A stretch of 64,000 nt of DNA, from positions 384,927 to 448,926 of the forward strand of contig JAUJPC010000002.1 of assembly GCA_030447305.1 (NCBI GenBank). The letters run 5' to 3'. Below the pieces are notes generated by a model. The model made no database searches, was not told the origin of the DNA, and worked only from the letters and a program-made list of their open reading frames with translations. A program made the position numbers and the translations under genes. This document shows positions 42,964 through 55,253 of the stretch, piece by piece. The first letter of the stretch is position 1, and each line of letters starts with the position of its first letter. This stretch comes from Actinomycetota bacterium (GTDB lineage Bacteria > Actinomycetota > CADDZG01 > JAHWKV01).

Positions 42964-45042
42964 ATGGATCCTGAAGAGATTGAGAACCGTGAATTCGACG
43001 TATCGATGCGGGGTTATGCGCGCCACGAGGTAGAGGCCTTCCGCGAGGAGGTTGCTCAGGAGATAAAGATCCTTCGCAAGCAGCTCACCAAGGCTACTTC
43101 GGATCTGTCACATGCCAACTCGGAGCTGAAGCGCACGCGGGCACAGCTGGCCGATACCAATGCTCAACTGACCGAGGAGCGATCCGGCAAGGCGCCCGAG
43201 CACGAAGGGAAGCAAGAAATTCCGCCGCCTGAGGACCGGGCTGCGGTGTTCAAGATGGTGGGGCAGGAGACCGAGCGCATCCTGCTGGCTGCCGAGCAGG
43301 CCGCCGAGCAGATTCACGATCGCGCAGTGAAGGAATCCGCCGAGATGATCACCGATGCCCGCCTGCAGGTTCAGCGCTCGATGGAAGAGCTGGAGGCGGC
43401 CCGCCGCGCTGCCGAGGAGGATTTCCGGGCGATCAGCGACACCCGCAGCATGGTCGCATCCCAGCTAGAGGACATCCGCCGGCGCCTGGAGGAGACCATT
43501 GGCCGGTTAAGGGTGCCGGTGGAGCTGCCGGGATCCAAGCCGATGCGTTCTCGCGGGCCGCAGGGTGGGTCCGAGCGCTCGATGTCGCAGGCTCCGCTGA
43601 ACCTCGTCAAGGAAGCCGAGATCCACGCTCAACAGCGGCAGCAGAGGGAGGTTGAAGCGGCCAAAGTGCTGGCGGCCCGGCAGACCGCCCATCTGGCCCA
43701 AGCCGAGAGGCGTGAAAGCGAGCTGAAGGTCGTTCAGGCGGAAGCGGAGCAGAGAGCCCAGGCGCACGCCGAGCGAGAGGCTCGTGAACGGGAGGCCCGC
43801 GAAGCCGCGCTCGCGCGCAAAGCGCAGGAAGCGCGCGCGGCTGCGGCTGCGGCAGATGCCGAGCGCCTCAAGTCGGCACGGGAAGCGGAAGGTCTCAGAG
43901 AAGCGCAGGAGGCCGAACGGGCCGCCCGGCTGGCGGCTGAGAGGGCCGCCATGGCAGAAGCCGAGCAGGCAGCCAAGGCGGAGAGGGTCGCCAAGGCAGA
44001 GGCCGAGCAGGCGGCGAAGGCAGAGGCGGAGAGGGCCGCCAAGGCGGAGGCCGAGCAGGCGGCGAAGGCAGAGGCGGAGAGGGCCGCCAAGGCAGAAGCC
44101 GAGCAGGCAGCCAAGGCGGAGAGGGTCGCCAAGGCAGAGGCCGAGCAGGCGGCGAAGGCAGAAGCCGAGAGGGCAGCCAAGGCGGAGGCCGAGAAGACGC
44201 CCCCGCCCCCCAAGGCAGTGGAGGAACGGCCGAAATCAACCGGGGACGATGCATCCAGTAGAAAGGCGGCGTCCGTTGATCACGGGTCGTCGCTTGATGA
44301 GCTGTTGGAAGAGATCCGCCGCAAACGGGAAGAGGAACGCAAGCGCCCTGCTGTGGACCAGCAGACGGCCACGGATGATGTCGCTCAGGAAATCTTCCGC
44401 CGCAACGAGGTCCTCGGGGACCTTCCTGCCCAAACCGCCCGGCGGCTGAAGCGGCTGCTGCAGGAGGATCACAATGATCTGCTCGATCGTCTAAGGACCC
44501 AGCGAGGGAAGGGTCCCCTGGGGGACAACCTCGCTCCTGTTAGCGAACAGCTCGGACGGTTCGTGGCGGGACTGAACGAAGCACTGGGCAGAGCGTTTGC
44601 AGAGGGGCACAAGGCCGGCGGAGCCGTAGGTTCGGTAGACGCATCACGAGCCGTGACAAGACTGGTCAGCCGCCAGGTTCTGAACCCCCTGCGGGCCGAG
44701 GTCTCTAAAGCCGTAGAGACAGGGCTGGAGGCGGAGGATTCGCCGTCTGCTCTGTCGGAGCGGGCAAACGACGTATTTCGGGTCTGGAAGGGCGTGCGAA
44801 CCCAGCTGTTGGGCGAAGGGATCTCCTACGCCGCTTACAACCAGGGCCTGTTGGAGGCACTGGGCTCTCGTCCGGGGGCCAGGAAGGTATGGGTTCTTGC
44901 CACCGATGAGCACGAATGTCCCAACGACATCTGCAAGCGCAACGCCTCCGCAGGCGAGGTTGAGCTCAAGTCGTCGTTCCCAAGTGGGCATCTGGCTCCA
45001 CCCGCTCACGGGGGCTGCACCTGCACTCTGAAGGGCTCCTGA
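42964..45042 (+). CDS. DivIVA domain-containing coiled-coil protein with internal tandem repeats
   Basis: N-terminal DivIVA-like motif (ENREFDVSMRGYARHEV); long coiled coil; AEAEQAAKAEAERAAK repeats. Confidence 0.7.
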   Translation: MDPEEIENREFDVSMRGYARHEVEAFREEVAQEIKILRKQLTKATSDLSHANSELKRTRAQLADTNAQLTEERSGKAPEHEGKQEIPPPEDRAAVFKMVGQETERILLAAEQAAEQIHDRAVKESAEMITDARLQVQRSMEELEAARRAAEEDFRAISDTRSMVASQLEDIRRRLEETIGRLRVPVELPGSKPMRSRGPQGGSERSMSQAPLNLVKEAEIHAQQRQQREVEAAKVLAARQTAHLAQAERRESELKVVQAEAEQRAQAHAEREAREREAREAALARKAQEARAAAAAADAERLKSAREAEGLREAQEAERAARLAAERAAMAEAEQAAKAERVAKAEAEQAAKAEAERAAKAEAEQAAKAEAERAAKAEAEQAAKAERVAKAEAEQAAKAEAERAAKAEAEKTPPPPKAVEERPKSTGDDASSRKAASVDHGSSLDELLEEIRRKREEERKRPAVDQQTATDDVAQEIFRRNEVLGDLPAQTARRLKRLLQEDHNDLLDRLRTQRGKGPLGDNLAPVSEQLGRFVAGLNEALGRAFAEGHKAGGAVGSVDASRAVTRLVSRQVLNPLRAEVSKAVETGLEAEDSPSALSERANDVFRVWKGVRTQLLGEGISYAAYNQGLLEALGSRPGARKVWVLATDEHECPNDICKRNASAGEVELKSSFPSGHLAPPAHGGCTCTLKGS
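43951..44196 (+). repeat. in-frame tandem repeat, 24/48 nt units with a higher-order duplication of about 144 nt
   Basis: Repeated gccgagcaggcggcgaaggcagaggcggagagggccgccaaggc blocks. Confidence 0.8.
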
Positions 45043-45103: not shown

Positions 45104-47947
45104 ATGGTAACCAAGATGCCCGCCTCTCCTAACTCCCGGAGGGTCCGCACAAGCTTCCTGGTCCTTTTCTTCTTTGCGATCATCTCGATCTCGGCGGCTG
45201 TCGGCCTGTACACCGACCTTCTGTGGTTTCGCGAGGTCGGCTTCCAGACGGTCTTCTGGAAAGTGCTCTCTTCGAGGGTGATCCTCGTCGGGGCATTCGG
45301 CCTCCTCTTTTTCATCTTGTGCCTGGTGAACCTGCTGGTCGTAGGCCGAACTGCGCCGGCCTACCGGATTCCCTCCGCTGACCAGGAGGACCCGTTCGAG
45401 AGGTTCCGGGAGGCATTCATCCCGTTTTCGCGCTGGATTCCAATTGGTGTCAGCGCTTTCCTCGCCTTGCTGTTCTCGTTGCGGCTCGCTCCTGCGTGGG
45501 ATCGCTTCGTCCTGGCCATGAACGCAGTGCCCTTCGATGCGGTGGATCCGATTTTCGGAAAGGACCTCAGCTTCTTCATGTTCCGGCTCCCCGTGTACCA
45601 GTTGATTTACGGCTGGCTCTTCTCGGCCGTGGTTGTGGTGACCCTGCTGGTGACGTCGGCCTACTACCTCGTCGGGGCAATTCGTCCCCAGGCGGCAATC
45701 GACAAGGTGGCGCCCCAGGTGAAGGTGCATCTTTCGGTGTTGATCGGAATTGCAGCGCTGCTGAGGGCGTGGGGATACCGGCTCAACCAGTACGAGCTGC
45801 TCTACTCCGAGCGCGGCACAGTCATAGGGGCCTCATACACCGACATCAACGCCGAGCTGCCCGCCCTCAAGCTCCTCGTGGCCATCTCGATCATCAGCGC
45901 AGTTCTGTTTCTGGTGAACATTCGGTTCCGCGGCTGGACGCTGCCTCTCATCGGGGTCGGGCTGTGGCTGTTGACCTCCGTCCTGGCCGCCGGCCTGTTC
46001 CCCTTCATCATCCAGCGATTCCAGGTCGAGCCCGCCGAGCTTCAGAAGGAGCGGGAGTTCATAGAGAGAAACATCGTCAACACGAGGAAAGCCTTCGGAC
46101 TGGATGCGATGCAGGTTCAAGAGTTCCCCATCGAACCCGGCTTGAGTGCCCAAAGCGTGCAGGAGAACCAAACAACACTGAACAACGTCCGGCTGTGGGA
46201 CCCGCACACGCTGATGAGCGCCTTCCGGCAGCTCCAGGAGATTCGAACCTACTACAAGTTCCAGGACGTGGACGTCGACCGTTACCAGCTGGGTCCCCAG
46301 AGGCGACAGTTGATGCTGGCCCTGCGGGAGCTCGACGTCACCAGCCTGCAGAGCCGCTCATGGCTGAACGATCACCTGGTGTACACGCATGGCTACGGAG
46401 CGGTCGCCAGCCCCACCAATGAGATCACCGGCGAAGGAGCGCCTCAGCTGCTGATACGGGACATCCCGCCGGTGTCGGACATGGACGAGCTCAAGATCGA
46501 CCGACCCGGAATCTACTTCGGCGAGGGCCCGAGCACCTATTCCATAGTCAACACCGAACAGCGGGAGCTGGACTACACCGCACCGGAAGGCAACGAGACA
46601 ACCGTCTATGACGGCAGAGCCGGTGTCCCGCTTCAAAACCTGTTTCGGCGGCTGACCTTTGCCTGGAGGTTCCGCGACGTGAACCTGGCCATCAGTGGTC
46701 TGATCGACGGTGAGTCAAAGGTCATCTTCAACCGGGGGATCCGGGAACGCGTCAGCAAGGCGGCGCCCTTCCTGGAGCTGGACGGAGATCCCTACGCAGT
46801 CCTCGCCGGAGGCCGGATCGTTTGGATTCTGGATGCCTACACGATGTCCAACATGTACCCGTACTCGCAGAGCGTCGACCTGTCGACCCGAACCCGCATT
46901 CGAGGCGGCGCCAACGATGGGGATCCCAGCATCGTGGCAACTGGGAACTACGTCCGCAACTCGGTGAAGGTAACGGTGGATGCCTACGACGGCACCATGA
47001 GGTTTTACGTATGGGACGAGAACGACCCGCTGATTCGAGCCTGGCAAAGGGCCTTCCCCTCTCTGTTGGTCGACCAGTCGCAGATGCCGGCAGAGGTACG
47101 AAGCCATGTGCGGTATCCGGAGGACATGTTTCGGATCCAGAGCCACGTTTACCAGCGCTACCACATGACCGATCCAACGGACTTCTATCAGCGGGAGGAT
47201 GAGTGGGTTATTCCCGCCAACCCGATGAGGGGGGTAAGCTCCGCCGTCGCGACGACGCAGGAGCTCGAGCCGTACTACGTCCTCATGCGCCTGCCGGACA
47301 CCGAACGGGACGAGTACGTGATGATCCTTCCGATGAACCCCAGGAACCGGCCGAATATGGTGTCACTCCTGGCGGCCAAGTCGGATCAGGAGGAATTCGG
47401 AAAGCTCGTGGACTTCCGCTTCCCAAAGGGCGTCCAGACCGGCGGGGTGGGGCAAATCCATTCCCGCATCAACGCCAATGAGGAGATCTCGCGTACCATC
47501 ACCCTGCTCGAGCAAAGCGGATCCGATGTCATCCTGGGCAACCTGCTCGTGATCCCGGTCGGCAAGTCGATCCTCTACTCGCAGCCCCTTTTCCTCCAGG
47601 CCAACAACAATGCCATTCCGGAGCTCAAGTACGTGATCCTGGCCAACTCCGATCAGGTTAAGATGGCGCCCACGTTGGACCAGGCGTTGGACGCGCTCCT
47701 CAGCAACGCTCCAACCGTCATCACGTCGCCGGGGACGCCGGCACCTCCTCCCGGGCCGCCGGCACCGGCTCCGCCTCCGCCGGCGGACGCGCCGGAGCCG
47801 GGAGCACAAACTCAGGACGAGCTGCTGAGGGAGGCATCCGACCGCCTGAATGCCGCGGAACAAGCGGCCCGCAACGGCGATTGGGCGGCCTACGGACGGG
47901 AGCTGCAGGCGGCGAGGGACGCACTTTCGAGGGCCCGGGGATCCTGA
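45104..47947 (+). CDS. UPF0182 family large membrane protein
   Basis: Multi-TM N-terminus plus large extracytoplasmic domain; Pro-rich C-terminal tail. Confidence 0.8.
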   Translation: MVTKMPASPNSRRVRTSFLVLFFFAIISISAAVGLYTDLLWFREVGFQTVFWKVLSSRVILVGAFGLLFFILCLVNLLVVGRTAPAYRIPSADQEDPFERFREAFIPFSRWIPIGVSAFLALLFSLRLAPAWDRFVLAMNAVPFDAVDPIFGKDLSFFMFRLPVYQLIYGWLFSAVVVVTLLVTSAYYLVGAIRPQAAIDKVAPQVKVHLSVLIGIAALLRAWGYRLNQYELLYSERGTVIGASYTDINAELPALKLLVAISIISAVLFLVNIRFRGWTLPLIGVGLWLLTSVLAAGLFPFIIQRFQVEPAELQKEREFIERNIVNTRKAFGLDAMQVQEFPIEPGLSAQSVQENQTTLNNVRLWDPHTLMSAFRQLQEIRTYYKFQDVDVDRYQLGPQRRQLMLALRELDVTSLQSRSWLNDHLVYTHGYGAVASPTNEITGEGAPQLLIRDIPPVSDMDELKIDRPGIYFGEGPSTYSIVNTEQRELDYTAPEGNETTVYDGRAGVPLQNLFRRLTFAWRFRDVNLAISGLIDGESKVIFNRGIRERVSKAAPFLELDGDPYAVLAGGRIVWILDAYTMSNMYPYSQSVDLSTRTRIRGGANDGDPSIVATGNYVRNSVKVTVDAYDGTMRFYVWDENDPLIRAWQRAFPSLLVDQSQMPAEVRSHVRYPEDMFRIQSHVYQRYHMTDPTDFYQREDEWVIPANPMRGVSSAVATTQELEPYYVLMRLPDTERDEYVMILPMNPRNRPNMVSLLAAKSDQEEFGKLVDFRFPKGVQTGGVGQIHSRINANEEISRTITLLEQSGSDVILGNLLVIPVGKSILYSQPLFLQANNNAIPELKYVILANSDQVKMAPTLDQALDALLSNAPTVITSPGTPAPPPGPPAPAPPPPADAPEPGAQTQDELLREASDRLNAAEQAARNGDWAAYGRELQAARDALSRARGS

Positions 47948-47991: not shown

Positions 47992-48068
<77 letters not shown>

Positions 48069-48503: not shown

Positions 48504-48527
48504 TTTGACACAGCTATTTATGTCAAA
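48504..48527. promoter_or_regulatory. inverted repeat TTTGACA-N10-TGTCAAA in an AT-rich patch overlapping the JAB-E1 stop codon
   Basis: Perfect 7 bp arms; possible protein-binding or recombination site. Confidence 0.3.
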
Positions 48528-49893
48528 AGAAGAAATCCCCCTGGCCCCATTCAGCGCAAGCGGGACAGTCCGGTCGCCGAGGCGGCAGATCACATCGTTC
48601 CAGGACCCCCCGGCGTCCATCGTATTGCCACCATGCCGGCCCACGACCACCTCTAGCGAAACCAGTAATGAGATCGAGGGCACAGTTCACTGCTTCTGAA
48701 GCCAGCACCCCATTCATAGATGCGACCTGGGGCTCTCCTACGGCGTCCGGATTCAGGTCGTATCCCGGCGGACACTCTACCGCTTCCCTAGCGAGCACGG
48801 CGTCGGAGAGAAGCGGGCCACATTGAAGACAAGATGATTCGGGGAGAACCATAACCACTTGGCCGGACGCCGTGAGGAGCCTTCCATCTCTCCCAGTCCT
48901 AATGTTCATTCCGACGTCGATCAGCGGCAGATGATATCGGCGGCAGAAAACATTGATCTGCTGCCGTGCACCGAAAGTGTCTACTCAGGCAATGACTACA
49001 TCCATCCTCTTCAGAGCTTCACGGACGCTCGAGGATGGAAACCGCTCTCGTATTTCTATGATCGAAATGTCCGGGTTGATTGATGTTGCTAGACCAGCCA
49101 TCACCTCAGTTTTGAAGCTGCCCACGTTGGCTCTGGTCGCCCCAACCATTCTTCCCAACTGGACGTCCTCCACTCGCTGGTCGTCAACACCGATCAGCGT
49201 CCCGACGCCTTGATGGGCAAGCTGCTGGAATACATGGGAACCCCCTCCCGAAAGCCCGACCACCCCGATGGTGGCGTCGGCGAGTTGGGCGTCGCTCGGA
49301 GATCCTAGGGCTCTGGTCTGACGATCCAGCTGAAAGCGGGATGGTCGTTTTGAAGACGGCCTGGGCTGCCACCTTGGCGTGCCGACCACTTTCAGACCAG
49401 CAAGATCTCCTATCGATTGCCCGTCTTTCCAAAACCTCCCGGCCGCGGTGCCTTGGCCGAGCACGACCGATCCATTCAGGCGGCCGGAAAGAATCCGGCT
49501 AATCGGGGGAAAGAGTTTGCCCGCATTAGCGAAGTCGGGGGCGGACAGACGCGGTCGCTGGGTATCTCCGTGAGAATGGACAAGGACCAGACCGAAACCA
49601 CCTTGCATGGCAGCTTCGATCGCCCGAGAATTGAATGTCGCAGGCCAAGCTAACTGATGATCTTTCCGGCTTCGATCGGCTTGGTCGGGCGGCACGGGCA
49701 TCCATCTGCCGGCAATGAGGATGAAGTCCTCCGCTGATCTAGCAACTCGGCAAAGAAGAAAACCGCTCTGTTCGCCGATCGAAAAGTCCTCAACGTGGCT
49801 CCGAACGACCTTAAAAAGGGCAGCATTTATCCTGAGCTCGATTTTTGCAATGGCTGGGTCGTGAGCACGGAGTGAGGTTGAGAACTCGATCAA
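48523..49893 (-). CDS. JAB/MPN (JAMM) metalloprotease fused to E1-like (ThiF/MoeB) adenylyltransferase; single in-frame TGA (Sec candidate or nonsense)
   Basis: Track ORFs 48985..49893 and 48523..48909 share one frame, split by TGA at 48985-87; JAMM motif VLVHSHGDTQRPRLSAPD with upstream Glu; E1 Gly-rich loop GVVGLSGGGSHV, Arg-finger region, CLQC and CPAC; TTG start overlaps upstream stop (TTGA). Confidence 0.55.
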
Positions 49894-50258
49894 ATGTCCT
49901 CCCTAAACCGATTGAGCCACAACTGGACCGCCCTGGTCGGGGTCAAAGGCTCCTGAGGCCAGGCAAAGGCAAAGCTAAACTGCCGCCACGATTCCCCCAG
50001 AATCAGCTGGTCGCTGGAGCTGCGGGGCGGTTGCCCACTCGGCGTGAGGGCTGCCACATCGATCCAGAAATCTGGACGGGCATGAGGCCAGTTCACGAAA
50101 CGGACCATCGCTCTAACCGGAGAACCCCAGGGGGGAAGGAGGTGGACCTTTGGGAGAAGAACATGAAGCGGCTGGTCAGGACCAGGAGTCACGTCTAGAG
50201 CCTCCGAAAAGGAATTAGAGAGGTCTTCGACTATGGCCCTGCGCTCGACATCTTCCAT
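49890..50258 (-). CDS. hypothetical protein between Ubl and JAB-E1 genes (possible E2-like or adaptor; no Cys)
   Basis: 122 aa ORF; ATG overlaps Ubl stop (TGATG), stop overlaps JAB-E1 start; no cysteine present. Confidence 0.5.
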   Translation of the reverse strand: MEDVERRAIVEDLSNSFSEALDVTPGPDQPLHVLLPKVHLLPPWGSPVRAMVRFVNWPHARPDFWIDVAALTPSGQPPRSSSDQLILGESWRQFSFAFAWPQEPLTPTRAVQLWLNRFREDI

Positions 50259-50527
50259 CAGCTTACGCCCCCGCCGCCGATGGCCTCGAAATGCATTCCA
50301 GACTTGACGTCAATCGCTTCGTGATCCGCTAGGACCATTCGCCCATTTCCGTGAACCAAATACAAGACATCGGTTGAGTCCACGCCCAACTCGGCCTTTA
50401 GCCGGTCTACGGTGGTCTCCCCCGCACTTACGGTTTTTTGCTCGTCCCCGAGCTTTACGTGCGCCAGCTTTGCCTTTTCGTCGGTCTTCGTTTCAACCAC
50501 CTCCCGAGTACATCGTTGATTGCACAA
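50258..50527 (-). CDS. ubiquitin-like beta-grasp protein (ThiS/MoaD-like) with C-terminal GGGG-VS
   Basis: Small beta-grasp-like sequence ending HFEAIGGGGVS; first gene of a coupled three-gene unit; exact start uncertain (TTG 50527 or GTG 50500). Confidence 0.5.
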   Translation of the reverse strand: MCNQRCTREVVETKTDEKAKLAHVKLGDEQKTVSAGETTVDRLKAELGVDSTDVLYLVHGNGRMVLADHEAIDVKSGMHFEAIGGGGVS

Positions 50528-50552: not shown

Positions 50553-51047
50553 CTAGAGCCGATTAAGCAATCTGGCGTCCTTCAGGGCGATGAAGATGGC
50601 TTCGCGACTCACTTGATACCGGGTGGCCAAAGCCCCAGGGGTTCGGTACTTAGGAAGGTCCCGCCTGAGCCAAAGACTGGGAATCAGCAAGGCGCCGGCG
50701 AAGATGTTTGCTTGAGCCTCCGCCAACTGACTCTCGTTATGGGCGTGACCAAGGTGGTAATGGCCGAGCTCGTGAGCGAGACTGAAACGCTGCCGGACCT
50801 GGGCTTGGTTGGAGGCGAGCTCTATTTGCCTTTCGTTGGGTCGAAGCAGGGCGTCCACTCCCCTAGGCAAATCAGCCCTCACAACGATTAACCCGGCACT
50901 CTGCGCAAGCTCCTCGACCGGCACTGGTGGTTGGGTCACACCCGCCTTCTTGAGGACATTTGCAGCAACCCTTCGACAATGAGCCGCTCTAACGTCCTCT
51001 TTGGGCTCGAAAAACTCTACGGCTCCATCGTCTTCAAACTCCTCCAT
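50553..51047 (-). CDS. ImmA/IrrE family zinc metallopeptidase (CapP-like regulator candidate)
   Basis: HEXXH in SLAHELGHYHLGH with COG2856-like N-terminal region. Confidence 0.65.
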   Translation of the reverse strand: MEEFEDDGAVEFFEPKEDVRAAHCRRVAANVLKKAGVTQPPVPVEELAQSAGLIVVRADLPRGVDALLRPNERQIELASNQAQVRQRFSLAHELGHYHLGHAHNESQLAEAQANIFAGALLIPSLWLRRDLPKYRTPGALATRYQVSREAIFIALKDARLLNRL

Positions 51048-51204
51048 GCTTCAACCACCTCCTCGACGAAATCCTCGGCAATGGGGCGTGCGCGAGCCGG
51101 ATCTCGCTCTGATCCACCAAGGGCGGATGCCCGGTCCTCCGCCGACAGACCGCTCGTCCTTCCCAGGACCTGACTGCCTGTGCCGGGGAACGTGACAAAG
51201 CCTG

Positions 51205-51450
51205 TTACTGTTTGGACAAGCAATGTTGCCAAGAGCTAGGTCGAAGACCAACGGTTCTAAGGAGTCTTGCAAGGCCAGCCGCAGATAGGCTGCGCGGATC
51301 AGCCTTCCCGGCGAGAAGCTTTCGAGCCTCCGATTCGTGCCCTATAACCTCATAAACAAGCTCGTCCTCGTTCCACCCAGCTGATTTACCGGCTTTGAGA
51401 ATCATGTCTGCGAGAAGGCTTGAGCTTGCCGTGGCCGCAGCCTTGACCAC
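51205..51450 (-). CDS. XRE-like helix-turn-helix protein (CapH-like repressor candidate)
   Basis: ELVYEVIGHESEARKLLAGKADPRSLSAAGLARLLRTVGL resembles HTH_3 helices; 5' end overlaps transposase remnant, boundary uncertain. Confidence 0.35.
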   Translation of the reverse strand: MVKAAATASSSLLADMILKAGKSAGWNEDELVYEVIGHESEARKLLAGKADPRSLSAAGLARLLRTVGLRPSSWQHCLSKQ

Positions 51451-51873
51451 CCTTTGTCGAAGTTCCTCGGGAACCTCTACCGCAGAGGCAGAATCGGCCT
51501 CGTACTCCGGCTCCGTAATTCCTGACGTGTAAGCCTGAGACCTTGTGGACCCCGTTGGGCGAGATCTTGATCGATCCCCATTTGCGCCGGGCCAGCTCGT
51601 CGCTGATGCGTTGCGGACCCACGGTGGGAAACGCCAGGGCGAACGCGATCACCCGCTGCTCAATCATCGGTGAGGTGGCGTTGGGCATCCGGGGCCGCCG
51701 GCGCTCCCGGGGGCCAAGATCTCGATGCCGAAACGCTCGACCTGGCCCTTCCAGCGGTAGTAGGTCGAGGGATGGATCCCCATTGCCCGGCAGGCGGCTC
51801 TTACATTGCCCATCTCGTGAGCTAGTCCAAAGACTCGTACTCTGAACCGGAACAGGGCATCATCTTGAGTCAA
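51386..51873 (-). mobile_element. IS481-family transposase N-terminal remnant (frameshifted, no DDE core)
   Basis: Two overlapping ORFs with HTH region (AACRAMGIHPSTYYRWK) and GPQRISDELARR segment; no integrase core follows. Confidence 0.55.
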
Positions 51874-52877: not shown

Positions 52878-53321
52878 TTGGCATGGTGGAGGGGCAAAGG
52901 GCCATCGCCGCGACATCAACCTGGGTACTCGCGCGGAGTGACGAGCGACCAGCGCTACACGGGGCGGGCAGAGCACGAAGCTCTCGCCGCCAAGCAGGCG
53001 CAACTCGGGCGGTCGGAAGCGACCTGCGCCGCCCTCATCCCCATCACTAAGTCGGAGGCTTGGTGGGGGCTCACCCAGGACGAGCGGCGGGAAATCTTCG
53101 AGGAGCGCTCGCACCATATAGCCATCGGTTTGGAGTACCTGCCCGCAGTCGCTCGCCGTCTTCATCACGGCCGCGACCTTGGCGAAGCATTCGACTTCCT
53201 TACCTGGTTCGAGTACCCGGAGGAGAGCCGTGCTGCGTTCGAGGAGCTCGTCGCGCGTCTTCGATTGACGCCTGAGTGGGAGTTCGTGGAGCGGGAGATC
53301 GACATCCGTCTCACTCGGTAG
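52878..53321 (+). CDS. chlorite dismutase/HemQ family-like protein, possibly truncated
   Basis: C-terminal-domain-like pattern (IPITKSEAWWGLTQDERREIFEE...DFLTWFEYPEE); N-terminal half not found in frame. Confidence 0.4.
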   Translation: MAWWRGKGPSPRHQPGYSRGVTSDQRYTGRAEHEALAAKQAQLGRSEATCAALIPITKSEAWWGLTQDERREIFEERSHHIAIGLEYLPAVARRLHHGRDLGEAFDFLTWFEYPEESRAAFEELVARLRLTPEWEFVEREIDIRLTR

Positions 53322-53649: not shown

Positions 53650-54396
53650 GTGAGGCAGCTCAAAACCGCACTCGGGAACGGAGCAGGAGCGGTCAACTCC
53701 GACGAGAACGTAGGCGGGGTTCTCAAACTGCTTGGCGGGGATCTACGTAATTCGGGACTGGCCTCAGCTTCCGACATTCCGCAGTTCGGGGTGGGCGCAG
53801 TCTCGGCACGGGAACTGGTGCAAGCCCTGAGGCTCGCTATACCTGGAGCCGAAGTCCAGATTCCAGTCATACGTCAAGGCAGTGGCGTACAGCGTCTCCT
53901 CCTGGTGTCGATCCTGCTTCGGCTTGCTCAATCCGGCGAGAACCCCTTGATTGGGCGCTTTGAAGAGCCGGAGGAAGCTCTAGAGCCTCTCAGGCAAACC
54001 CAGATGGCCAAGACGTTGGCCCAAATTGTGGGGCGTGGCGGACAAGTATTTGTCGTGACGCATTCCCCAGAGGTGGCTCGCGCCTTCTCAATCGATGACT
54101 TCCTCTTGCTTGAGGGGCGCTCGGCCGGGGGAGGTGCATCGGCTTCCCTGCCTGCCGGGCTTCGAGCCTGTAGCGAGGAACCACCAAGAGGGGTTTGCTC
54201 TGCCGGAGGAACTTGGCTACGTCCACCGCTGGCGGGAAATTGCCTTTCTCTTGGGGGACTAGCTCATCAGGTCATAGGTCTCCGAAGTAACCCGACGCAA
54301 CCAATGCTTCCGGCGAGTGGAGGTTCGGTGTGGCTGACCAGGACAATTTCGACAGCGCTGTGGAGCGGTTCCGCGAGGCTCTTCATGAGTACGTGA
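53650..54396 (+). pseudogene. C-terminal fragment of an ABC/AAA-type ATPase (OLD/RecF-like), N-terminal Walker A region missing
   Basis: Walker B/D-loop-like FEEPEEALEP and H-loop VFVVTHSPE; no upstream P-loop in any frame. Confidence 0.5.
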
Positions 54397-54581: not shown

Positions 54582-55253
54582 ATGCCTGCTCATTCTCCCG
54601 CGGTTCAGGATTGCCTAAAGGCCATCTACATGCTCTCGATCGAGGGCGGCGAAGGGCACCCGGTCTCGACGCAGTCGCTGTCCGGCCGTCTGGGTATCAG
54701 CGCCGCGTCGGCCACGAACATGCTCAAGAAGCTGGCGTCTCTGGGCCTCGTGGATCACGTGAACTACCGCGGCGCGGAGCTGACGGAGCCGGGACGGAAG
54801 GTCGCGCTAGAGGTCATCCGCCACCACCGCTTGCTCGAGACCTATCTGGCCGAGGCGCTGGGGGTGCCCTGGGATCAGGTGCACGCGGAGGCCGAGGTGC
54901 TAGAGCATGTCTTGTCAGAGGACCTAGAGGACCGCATCGCCGCACGCCTGGGGAATCCGACGGTCGACCCCCACGGCCATCCCATCCCGGCCAAGGATGG
55001 GTCGATGCCGCTGCTATCGCAGCGGCGGCTGTGGGAAGCGGGGGCGGGTGAATCGGTCGCGGTCGACCGCGTGTCAGACGCAGACGCCGAGGCGCTTCGT
55101 TATCTGGCGGAGCTCGGCATCAAGCCCGGCTCGCGGTTACAAGTCATCGGCAGAGGCCCCGTCGGCGGGCCGCTGTTCGTGACCGTCGAGGACGGGACGC
55201 ACGAAGTGAGCGCGCTATCTAAGGAGATCTCGGAGGTCGTATGGGTCGCATAG
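54582..55253 (+). CDS. DtxR/IdeR/MntR family metal-dependent transcriptional regulator with C-terminal SH3-like domain
   Basis: N-terminal HTH (STQSLSGRLGISAASATNMLKKL), metal-site and dimerisation region, FeoA-like C-terminus. Confidence 0.85.
   Translation: MPAHSPAVQDCLKAIYMLSIEGGEGHPVSTQSLSGRLGISAASATNMLKKLASLGLVDHVNYRGAELTEPGRKVALEVIRHHRLLETYLAEALGVPWDQVHAEAEVLEHVLSEDLEDRIAARLGNPTVDPHGHPIPAKDGSMPLLSQRRLWEAGAGESVAVDRVSDADAEALRYLAELGIKPGSRLQVIGRGPVGGPLFVTVEDGTHEVSALSKEISEVVWVA

What the first reader, a model, noticed from the sequence alone, without database searches (positions are those of the whole stretch)
49890..50258. Middle gene of the Ubl operon contains no cysteine
If this protein is the E2 equivalent, it lacks the catalytic Cys every canonical E2 needs. 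It could be a UEV-like inactive E2, an adaptor or target-recognition factor, or an unrelated fold. A segment (FVNWPHARPDFWIDV) loosely recalls the HPN region of E2s with Asp where Cys is expected.
Basis: inference. Interest (0 to 1): 0.5.

Follow-up and report, generated by a model that had tools for sequence, protein, structure and literature searches.

The report
Serine-type E2 of Bub-like operon
The cysteine-free middle gene is a genuine ubiquitin-conjugating (E2) fold whose catalytic cysteine is replaced by an invariant serine, as in the recently described bacterial "Bub" pathway, here in a stripped-down three-gene version whose activating enzyme carries a premature stop codon in this strain.

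Summary
Window 49890-50258 (-) is a 122-aa ORF with no cysteine, and no cysteine is conserved among 54 homologues.

The neighbouring genes match too:
- The upstream Ubl resembles BubA and ends in GG-VS.
- The downstream JAB-E1 fusion resembles BubCD, with an invariant crossover-loop Tyr aligned to Y370 and no conserved Cys.
- A CapP-like peptidase lies upstream.

Three things differ from published Bub operons. There is no BubE/DUF6527 in the window or in seven other annotated contexts. The E2 has no His two residues after the serine. The E1 has a predicted zinc-binding site (CxxC plus CPxCA).

In this strain the E1 is cut by an in-frame TGA (TGT in a sister assembly), and an upstream gene is frameshifted. 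I read this as a new variant of a known kind, of moderate interest.

The parts
49890..50258 (-). E2-like gene (122 aa, no Cys): a divergent BubB / Prok-E2_E homologue. Ser95 (codon 49974-49976) sits at the catalytic position. Asp63 (codon 50070-50072) aligns with the BubB accessory Asp.
50258..50527 (-). Ubl gene. It is 89 aa from the first TTG; the 80-aa cluster representative P0121 and the 243-nt gene calls in L011/L012 imply a start at 50500. It has a single beta-grasp domain and ends ...GGGGVS, so two residues must be removed to expose the Gly-Gly end.
48523..49893 (-). JAB/JAMM peptidase fused to an E1 adenylation domain (BubCD-like; 456 codons), interrupted by an in-frame TGA.
   Evidence: Pfam Prok-JAB plus ThiF, split over two ORFs. 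In-frame translation. Best PDB sequence match is Citrobacter BubCD, E 5e-19, spanning both domains. Intact 450-663 aa orthologues.
48985..48987 (-). In-frame TGA at E1 codon 303, where all 11 compared orthologues and Citrobacter BubCD have Cys. The result is a truncated E1 in this strain.
   Evidence: The near-identical contig L011 (SRR24765286) has TGT here. L012 (SRR24765285) has TGA, like the window.
48760..48762 (-). Codon for E1 Tyr378 (PPGYD) in the crossover loop, the proposed E1 nucleophile. It lies downstream of the stop codon, so it is not translated in this allele.
   Evidence: Invariant in 12 of 12 E1 orthologues. No conserved Cys in the loop; the window's Cys374 is Arg or Ala in the others. 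MAFFT aligns it with BubCD Y370.
50553..51047 (-). CapP-like M78 (IrrE/ImmA) metallopeptidase, the presumed regulator of the cassette.
   Evidence: Pfam Peptidase_M78, 1.4e-18. PADLOC capP, 5e-22. An M78 peptidase lies next to the cassette in the window and in 6 of 7 other annotated contexts; the seventh (L004) has only an HTH gene.
51017..51450 (-). A gene of about 190 aa with unknown function that precedes and overlaps the M78 peptidase gene in orthologous loci. Here a 1-nt deletion near 51225 splits it into two ORFs (51205-51450 and 51017-51232).
   Evidence: mafft comparison with L011. Translations compared with L011 1-552, the L005 192-aa gene and the L033 197-aa gene. No Pfam or PADLOC match.
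47992..48068 (+). tRNA-Met gene next to the end of the cassette.
   Evidence: ARAGORN.
51386..51873 (-). Transposase-type HTH fragment(s) at the upstream edge of the cassette. They occupy the place of the sigma70_r4-like gene seen in L005 and L033.
   Evidence: Pfam HTH_28, HTH_29 and HTH_Tnp_1 on 51664-51873. Neighbourhoods. Translations.

Best explanation
The middle gene encodes a UBC-fold E2 of the Bub (bacterial ubiquitination-like; Prok-E2_E) lineage. In this lineage the catalytic cysteine is replaced by a serine, here Ser95 in the invariant motif G-x-x-W-R-x-F-S.

Proposed pathway. Every step is inferred from homology with the characterised Citrobacter and E. coli Bub systems; none was tested here.
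1. A CapP-like peptidase and its partner regulator control expression.
2. The JAB domain of the E1 fusion trims the two-residue tail (Val-Ser) from the Ubl to expose Gly-Gly.
3. The E1 adenylates the Ubl C-terminus.
4. The crossover-loop Tyr378 takes the Ubl as a tyrosyl oxyester.
5. The Ubl passes to E2 Ser95 as a seryl oxyester.
6. A lysine on an unknown target, probably in the context of phage defence or stress, attacks that ester.

The cassette is a minimal three-gene version: it has no BubE/DUF6527 protease. In the sequenced strain the E1 is truncated at codon 303 by a TGT-to-TGA change and an upstream gene is frameshifted. The E2 gene is intact, but the pathway is probably inactive in this strain.
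For: Fold:
- AF2 model with pLDDT 92.3 and pTM 0.86.
- Foldseek top hit is BubB, probability 1.00, TM 0.70.

Homology:
- An exhaustive profile search reaches bona fide Multi_ubiq + Prok-E2_E fusions, the BubAB type.
- hhalign against those domains plus BubB gives 98.1%, E 7e-14, over 105 columns.

Catalytic position:
- Ser95 aligns with the Ser of the BubB motif WQRFSWH (S333).
- Ser95 is invariant in 54 of 54 homologues.
- In a sister subgroup (9 proteins, e.g. P0066, P0072, P0081, P0086) the same column is Cys. This is what one expects of a nucleophile position.

Partner proteins:
- The E1's best PDB match is BubCD, E 5e-19, across both the JAB and E1 domains.
- The JAMM motif E...HxH...S..D is conserved.
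- The crossover-loop Tyr is invariant in 12 of 12 orthologues and aligns with BubCD Y370; the loop has no conserved Cys.
- The Ubl's GG plus two-residue tail is conserved in every locus with upstream sequence.

Operon:
- The order Ubl, E2, JAB-E1 with overlapping stop and start codons is conserved in all loci with enough sequence.
- capP or capH+capP neighbours are present, as for 31% of published Bub operons.

Published biochemistry: BubB S333A/H335A and BubCD Y370F each abolish conjugation (bioRxiv 10.1101/2024.11.21.623953, read).
Against: - No biochemistry was done on this family.
- The accessory residues described for Bub E2s are not conserved here. The position two after the serine is A/N/S/G/Q, never His. 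Asp63 is D or E in only 40 of 54. A serine without a general base may react poorly.
- The Pfam Prok-E2_E model does not detect the protein.
- BubE/DUF6527, said to be present in all Bub operons, is absent.
- In this strain the E1 is truncated, so the E2 cannot be charged here unless the TGA is read through.
Confidence: 0.7

Rival explanations
1. UEV-like pseudo-E2. The protein keeps the UBC fold but is catalytically inert. It would act as an adaptor or specificity factor that binds the Ubl, the E1 or a target. Transfer would go directly from the E1 tyrosyl ester, or from the acyl-adenylate, to the target.
Confidence: 0.13
2. The E2-like protein is mainly a substrate or acceptor of the Ubl, or an auto-modified regulator, rather than a carrier that passes the Ubl on to other proteins.
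For: In vitro, the main product of Citrobacter BubB was BubA attached to BubB's only lysine, K358. The window protein also has a single lysine, K36 (sequence). No target or E3 gene is conserved in the cassette.
Against: In cells, Citrobacter Bub modifies many proteins. K36 does not appear among the invariant or nearly invariant columns of the family alignment. This reading still requires Ser95-dependent chemistry, so it refines the best explanation more than it competes with it.
Confidence: 0.07
3. A decaying remnant. In this genome the cassette is a pseudogenised island and the E2 ORF has no function, whatever its ancestor did.
For: The E1 has an in-frame TGA where a sister assembly has TGT. 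A 1-nt deletion frameshifts the gene upstream of capP. Transposase fragments occupy the place of the regulator gene seen in orthologous loci.
Against: The E2 and Ubl ORFs are intact and identical to those of the sister allele with an intact E1. The damage is therefore very recent, or is a polymorphism within the population. It says nothing about what the protein family does. The TGA is seen in the window and in L012, which may come from the same reads and so may not be independent.
Confidence: 0.1

Closest known systems
BubB, the E2 of Type I Bub operons (Pfam Prok-E2_E, PF14462; Citrobacter sp. RHBSTW-00271; PDB 9EAV, 9EAE; Ye, Gong, Chambers & Corbett, bioRxiv 10.1101/2024.11.21.623953)
   Same: - A truncated UBC fold, consistent with BubB's lack of the C-terminal helix pair: the model shows one helix after the active-site hairpin.
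- No catalytic Cys; an invariant Ser at the same alignment column in an aromatic-rich W-x-x-F-S motif.
- An Asp/Glu-rich xPDxFW segment that aligns with D299.
- Encoded directly after a Multi_ubiq-type Ubl and directly before a JAB-E1 fusion.
- Some published Type I operons also have separate Ubl and E2 genes (Table S1).
   Different: - About 10-12% identity.
- Not detected by the Pfam model.
- No His two residues after the Ser (FSF(A/N/S) instead of FSWH).
- Asp63 is not invariant.
- The family has its own invariant residues (H32, W44, W57-P58, R61-P62, P77-P78-R79, W114, R117) whose roles are unknown.
BubCD, the JAB-E1 fusion of Type I Bub (PDB 9EA4, 9EA5, 9EAV)
   Same: - Same domain order and length (456 codons here; most orthologues 450-484 aa, one 663; BubCD 458).
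- Best PDB sequence match, E 5e-19.
- JAMM motif intact.
- A crossover-loop Tyr aligned with Y370 and no conserved crossover Cys.
- Cys at the position of the window's TGA.
   Different: - The window family has a CxxC ... CPxCA four-cysteine motif, presumably a ThiF/MoeB-like structural zinc site. Citrobacter BubCD lacks it in the alignment.
- The window allele is truncated at codon 303.
Bub operons as defined in the literature (the '6E'/DUF6527 operons of Millman et al. 2022, used in Ye et al. 2024)
   Same: Ubl + E2(Ser) + E1(Tyr) + JAB. Frequent CapH/CapP regulators. Located in mobile or defence islands and next to tRNA genes.
   Different: No BubE/DUF6527 serine protease in the window, in 38 fetched loci (tblastn and motif scan), or in the precomputed Pfam annotation of 7 contexts. 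The published set was selected for DUF6527, so cassettes of this kind could not have been in it.
Canonical eukaryotic E2 (UBC, PF00179) and UEV domains (Mms2, Tsg101)
   Different: No HPN motif and no Cys. The model has only one helix after the active-site hairpin, whereas BubB is described as lacking the characteristic C-terminal helix pair of the UBC fold. Unlike UEVs, the catalytic position holds an invariant potential nucleophile, and the gene sits in an operon with its own E1 and Ubl.
Bil (BilABCD) and Type II CBASS Cap2/Cap3 bacterial ubiquitin-like systems
   Different: Those systems use catalytic cysteines and thioesters. Their domain architectures differ: IAD-AAD-CYS E1 in Bil, and an E2-E1 fusion in Cap2.

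Membership tests
UBC/E2 fold superfamily | Alpha/beta UBC core: N-terminal helix, antiparallel meander sheet, active-site loop, following helix. | tested here: met
Canonical E2 (Pfam UQ_con) | Catalytic Cys downstream of an HPN motif. | tested here: not met
   No Cys in the protein. No conserved Cys column in 54 homologues. No Pfam hit.
Prok-E2_E / BubB | Sequence match to Pfam PF14462 above the gathering threshold. | tested here: not met
   No hit for the window protein at E <= 1. One of 35 family members matches at E 0.11. Citrobacter BubB itself scores 8e-27.
Prok-E2_E / BubB | Homology detectable by profile methods and closest structural neighbour. | tested here: met
Prok-E2_E / BubB | Invariant Ser at the position of the E2 catalytic Cys. 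| tested here: met
   Ser95 in 54 of 54 homologues. It aligns with the Ser of FSWH (S333). This rests on alignment; side-chain superposition was not possible with these tools.
Prok-E2_E / BubB | Accessory residues next to the Ser: His two residues after it plus Asp (Type I), or Lys plus His (Type II). | tested here: not met
   The position two after the Ser is A 17, N 16, S 12, Q 5, G 4. The Asp-equivalent residue 63 is D 19, E 21, other 14.
Bub operon (Type I) | Multi_ubiq-type beta-grasp Ubl with a conserved C-terminal Gly that a JAB peptidase exposes. | tested here: met
Bub operon (Type I) | JAB-E1 fusion with a crossover-loop Tyr and no catalytic Cys. | tested here: met
   Tyr378 is invariant in 12 of 12 orthologues and aligns with Y370.
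Bub operon (Type I and II) | BubE (DUF6527/PF20137) serine protease gene in the operon. | tested here: not met
   None in the precomputed Pfam annotation of 7 contexts. No tblastn or motif hit in the window or 38 loci. The gene after the E1 differs in every context.
Bub operon | Conjugation through Tyr and Ser oxyester intermediates. | not testable with these tools
   This needs biochemistry. It is inferred only from conserved residues and homology.
UEV (inactive E2 variant) | UBC fold with no nucleophile at the active-site position and no dedicated E1 or Ubl. | tested here: not met
   Invariant Ser at the position. A dedicated Ubl and E1 are encoded in the same translationally coupled cassette.

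The most novel reading that the evidence does not exclude
This may be a distinct third type of Bub-like conjugation system: a minimal Ubl, E2(Ser), JAB-E1(Tyr) cassette from soil Actinomycetota, Acidobacteriota and Gemmatimonadota.

On this reading it works without the BubE protease. Its serine active site has none of the His/Asp or Lys/His helpers known from Types I and II, so it would activate the oxyester in another way. In one subclade it would be controlled by a sigma-factor-like protein, an unknown protein of about 190 aa and a CapP-like peptidase, rather than by a CapH repressor.
Probability: 0.4. Interest if true: 0.55.

Novelty: new variant of a known kind. Interest (0 to 1): 0.4.

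Why it matters
Since 2024 a cysteine-free E2 no longer poses a puzzle: the Bub pathway showed that ubiquitin-like conjugation can run entirely on Tyr and Ser oxyesters. This family adds three things.

- It widens that chemistry to a rare, unannotated lineage. Only 68 clusters match in 1.84 billion representative proteins, with no Pfam or PADLOC hit. The lineage occurs in soil phyla and was invisible to the DUF6527-based census.
- It shows that the E2 nucleophile column switches between Ser and Cys among close relatives, while the one E1 examined next to a Cys-type E2 keeps the Tyr. That makes a natural comparison for asking why oxyesters are used.
- It lacks both BubE and the described catalytic helper residues, so it could show which parts of the Bub machinery are actually required.

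For annotation, the three genes can be named: Bub-like Ubl, E2 and JAB-E1. In this genome the E1 should be flagged as disrupted.

Tried and rejected
- Direct sequence searches with the E2 found nothing. This covers Pfam, PADLOC, PDB by phmmer, PDB with the family profile, and Pfam on all 35 family members.
- hhalign of the family against the single BubB sequence was not significant (E 0.68). It became significant only against an alignment of Prok-E2_E domains.
- A homologue search with the Citrobacter BubB sequence, taken from the paper's machine-read supplementary PDF and so possibly containing small errors, returned one fragment only. That search was wasted.
- Selenocysteine at the E1 TGA was rejected. 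A near-identical contig has TGT at the same base. All orthologues have an ordinary Cys in the Rossmann-fold DxVxxCxD segment. The downstream RNA folds only modestly better than shuffled sequence (z -2.1).
- I looked for E2-Cys pairing with E1-Cys. The one E1 recovered next to a Cys-type E2 (L037) still has the crossover Tyr and no loop Cys. The expected co-variation was therefore not found.
- I searched for a hidden BubE with tblastn using both published BubE proteins, and with C-x-S-H-aromatic and HPS motif scans over the window and 38 loci. Nothing turned up.
- The genome-contig scan gave only 3 loci.
- Literature searches for other Bub types found only the two Corbett-lab preprints and the CapK/CapS papers.
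- I could not inspect model coordinates, so no distances around Ser95 were measured.

Full report
**1. The observation**

Window 49890-50258 (minus strand) is an ATG-initiated ORF of 122 aa with no cysteine. It lies between two other minus-strand genes:
- An 80-89 aa gene at 50258-50527 whose product ends ...GGGGVS.
- A JAB+ThiF gene at 48523-49893 (Pfam).

The three genes are translationally coupled. The Ubl stop TGA shares its A with the E2 ATG at 50258. The E2 stop overlaps the E1 TTG start, giving the sequence TTGA at 49890-49893.

Lack of Cys in a protein this short is not remarkable in itself. At the window's Cys frequency of 0.72%, the probability is about 0.42. It is, however, a property of the whole family. 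Of 54 homologues, 44 have no Cys, and no column holds Cys in three or more sequences.

**2. What the protein is**

Direct sequence searches give no hit. This holds for Pfam, PADLOC and PDB, whether queried with the single sequence or with the family profile.

An AlphaFold2 model built from a 35-sequence alignment is confident (pLDDT 92.3, pTM 0.86). It has an N-terminal helix, an antiparallel sheet, a hairpin and a C-terminal helix.

- Foldseek also ranks BubB first (9eae_C, probability 1.00, TM 0.70).

BubB is the E2 of the Bub (bacterial ubiquitination-like, "6E"/DUF6527) operons. Ye et al. (bioRxiv 10.1101/2024.11.21.623953) showed three things about these operons:
- BubB has no catalytic Cys but has an invariant Ser (S333).
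- The JAB-E1 fusion BubCD has an invariant crossover-loop Tyr (Y370) instead of Cys.
- Mutating either residue abolishes conjugation, so the pathway runs on oxyesters.

**3. Homology and the catalytic residue**

An exhaustive HMM search of 1.84 billion representative proteins with the family profile found only 68 clusters at E <= 1e-3.

- The weaker hits include 195-370 aa proteins that Pfam identifies as Multi_ubiq + Prok-E2_E fusions, which is the BubAB architecture.
- They also include stand-alone proteins of about 120 aa that pass the Prok-E2_E threshold.
- Citrobacter BubB itself is Prok-E2_E (8e-27).

Profile-profile comparison of the window family with these Prok-E2_E domains plus BubB gives 98.1% probability and E 7e-14 over 105 columns.

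In that alignment, and in a MAFFT alignment, the window's WRQF-S95-F matches BubB's WQRF-S-WH. The window's RPD63FW matches BubB's PDMFW, which carries D299.

- Ser95 is present in 54 of 54 homologues. G88, W91 and W100 are also invariant, and R92 and F94 nearly so.
- In a sister subgroup of nine proteins the same column is Cys. That supports its being the nucleophile position.

Its Asp corresponds to an accessory residue and is itself variable (D 19, E 21, other 14).

**4. The partner proteins**

*E1.* Read through the stop, the E1 has 456 codons.
- Its best PDB sequence match is BubCD (E 5e-19), covering both the JAB and adenylation domains.
- Twelve orthologues share the JAMM motif, the GGGSH nucleotide loop, and a CxxC...CPxCA motif that Citrobacter BubCD lacks.
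- They also share an invariant crossover-loop P-x-G-Y-D whose Tyr (378) aligns with BubCD Y370. The loop has no conserved Cys.

*Ubl.* The model (pLDDT 83) is a single beta-grasp domain.
- 16 of 26 homologues weakly match Pfam Multi_ubiq.
- Every Ubl ends GG(V/I)S or GGKAS. This implies trimming by the JAB domain, just as BubCD cleaves BubAB after its Gly.

**5. Operon context**

The Ubl, E2, JAB-E1 order is kept in all loci with enough sequence.

A CapP-like M78 peptidase is adjacent in the window and in six of the seven other annotated contexts. The seventh (L004) has only an HTH gene upstream. The peptidase's partner varies:
- A CapH-like HTH protein (L032, L035).
- An HTH fused to the peptidase (L001, L034).
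- A sigma70_r4 protein plus an unknown protein of about 190 aa, in the window's own subclade (L005, L033).

Flanking genes include integrases, restriction-modification genes, a SduA_C (Shedu) gene, HipA and a TrwC relaxase. In the window, tRNA-Met lies directly downstream.

No DUF6527/BubE gene is present in any context. Published Bub operons were collected by the presence of DUF6527 (Table S1). That table also shows that separate Ubl and E2 genes already occur within Type I.

**6. State of the locus in this strain**

The E1 is interrupted by an in-frame TGA at 48985-48987. All 11 compared orthologues and BubCD have Cys at that position.

Two contigs from Logan assemblies of public sequencing runs are nearly identical to the window:
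- L012 is identical to the window over 3.1 kb.
- L011, from a sister run, has TGT at the stop position and an intact 458-aa E1.
- L011 also carries one extra base near 51225, which restores a single gene of about 190 aa upstream of capP. It has a 6-nt insertion in the E1 and two further SNPs.

The window allele is therefore a very recent loss-of-function variant of the E1 and of one upstream gene. The E2 and Ubl genes are untouched. Selenocysteine was considered and rejected (and the TGT allele).

**7. Interpretation**

The best-supported reading (about 0.7) is a serine-type E2 that carries the Ubl as an oxyester, received from the E1 tyrosine. This is homologous to BubB, in a minimal Bub-like cassette without BubE.

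The steps shown here are:
- the fold;
- the homology;
- conservation and alignment of Ser95 and Tyr378;
- the Ubl's GG tail;
- the operon structure.

The steps that are inferred are:
- the chemistry;
- JAB trimming of the tail;
- the regulation;
- the defence role.

The main caveat is the absence of the His/Asp or Lys/His helpers described for Bub E2s. That keeps the pseudo-E2 reading alive at about 0.13.

**8. Novelty**

The central surprise, an E2 without cysteine, is already explained by published work. What is new is a rare, unannotated and divergent subfamily. It has no BubE, a different active-site environment, a predicted zinc site in the E1, and, in one subclade, a sigma-like regulator set. 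I rate it a new variant of a known kind, with interest 0.4.

Noticed in passing
window 48985-48987 (-): In-frame TGA inside the JAB-E1 gene, at a codon that is Cys in all 11 compared orthologues and in BubCD. The near-identical contig L011 has TGT. It looks like a nonsense polymorphism, not selenocysteine.
   Followed up: yes
window 51017-51450 (-), around 51225: A 1-nt deletion relative to L011 splits a conserved gene of about 190 aa with unknown function (no Pfam or PADLOC match). In orthologous loci this gene overlaps the start of the CapP-like peptidase gene. In L005 and L033 it sits between a sigma70_r4 gene and the peptidase, which suggests an anti-sigma-like substrate of the peptidase. 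That is speculation.
   Followed up: partly
window 51386-51873 (-): Transposase-type HTH fragments (HTH_28, HTH_29, HTH_Tnp_1) at the upstream edge of the cassette, where related loci carry a sigma70_r4 gene. They are probably an IS remnant that removed the regulator.
   Followed up: partly
window 47992-48068 (+): tRNA-Met gene immediately downstream of the E1. This fits the tRNA-adjacent island locations reported for Bub operons.
   Followed up: partly
P0066, P0072, P0074, P0076, P0081, P0086, P0087, P0095, P0098; locus L037: A sister subgroup of small Prok-E2_E-like proteins has Cys where the window family and BubB have the catalytic Ser. The E1 next to one of them (L037) still has the crossover-loop Tyr and no loop Cys. 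That would imply a mixed Tyr-ester / Cys-thioester relay.
   Followed up: partly
window 48523-48909 (-) and E1 orthologues: The E1 family has a conserved CxxC ... CPxCA four-cysteine motif, of the ThiF/MoeB structural zinc type. It is absent from Citrobacter BubCD in the alignment.
   Followed up: partly
window 42964-45042 (+): A DivIVA-domain protein of 692 aa with a long, highly repetitive Ala/Glu/Lys-rich middle region (AEAEQAAKAEAERAAK... repeats).
   Followed up: no
window 53650-54396 (+) and 52878-53321 (+): An ORF matching only the C-terminal part of AAA_15/AAA_21 (AbiEii-like ATPase), apparently a fragment, and a short ORF similar to chlorite dismutase. Both lie just beyond the transposase remnants, which may mark further island decay.
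   Followed up: no
window 45104-47947 (+) and 54582-55253 (+): Housekeeping-type flanking genes: a UPF0182 membrane protein (7e-283) and an IdeR/DtxR-type iron-dependent repressor. The window has 63% G+C.
   Followed up: no
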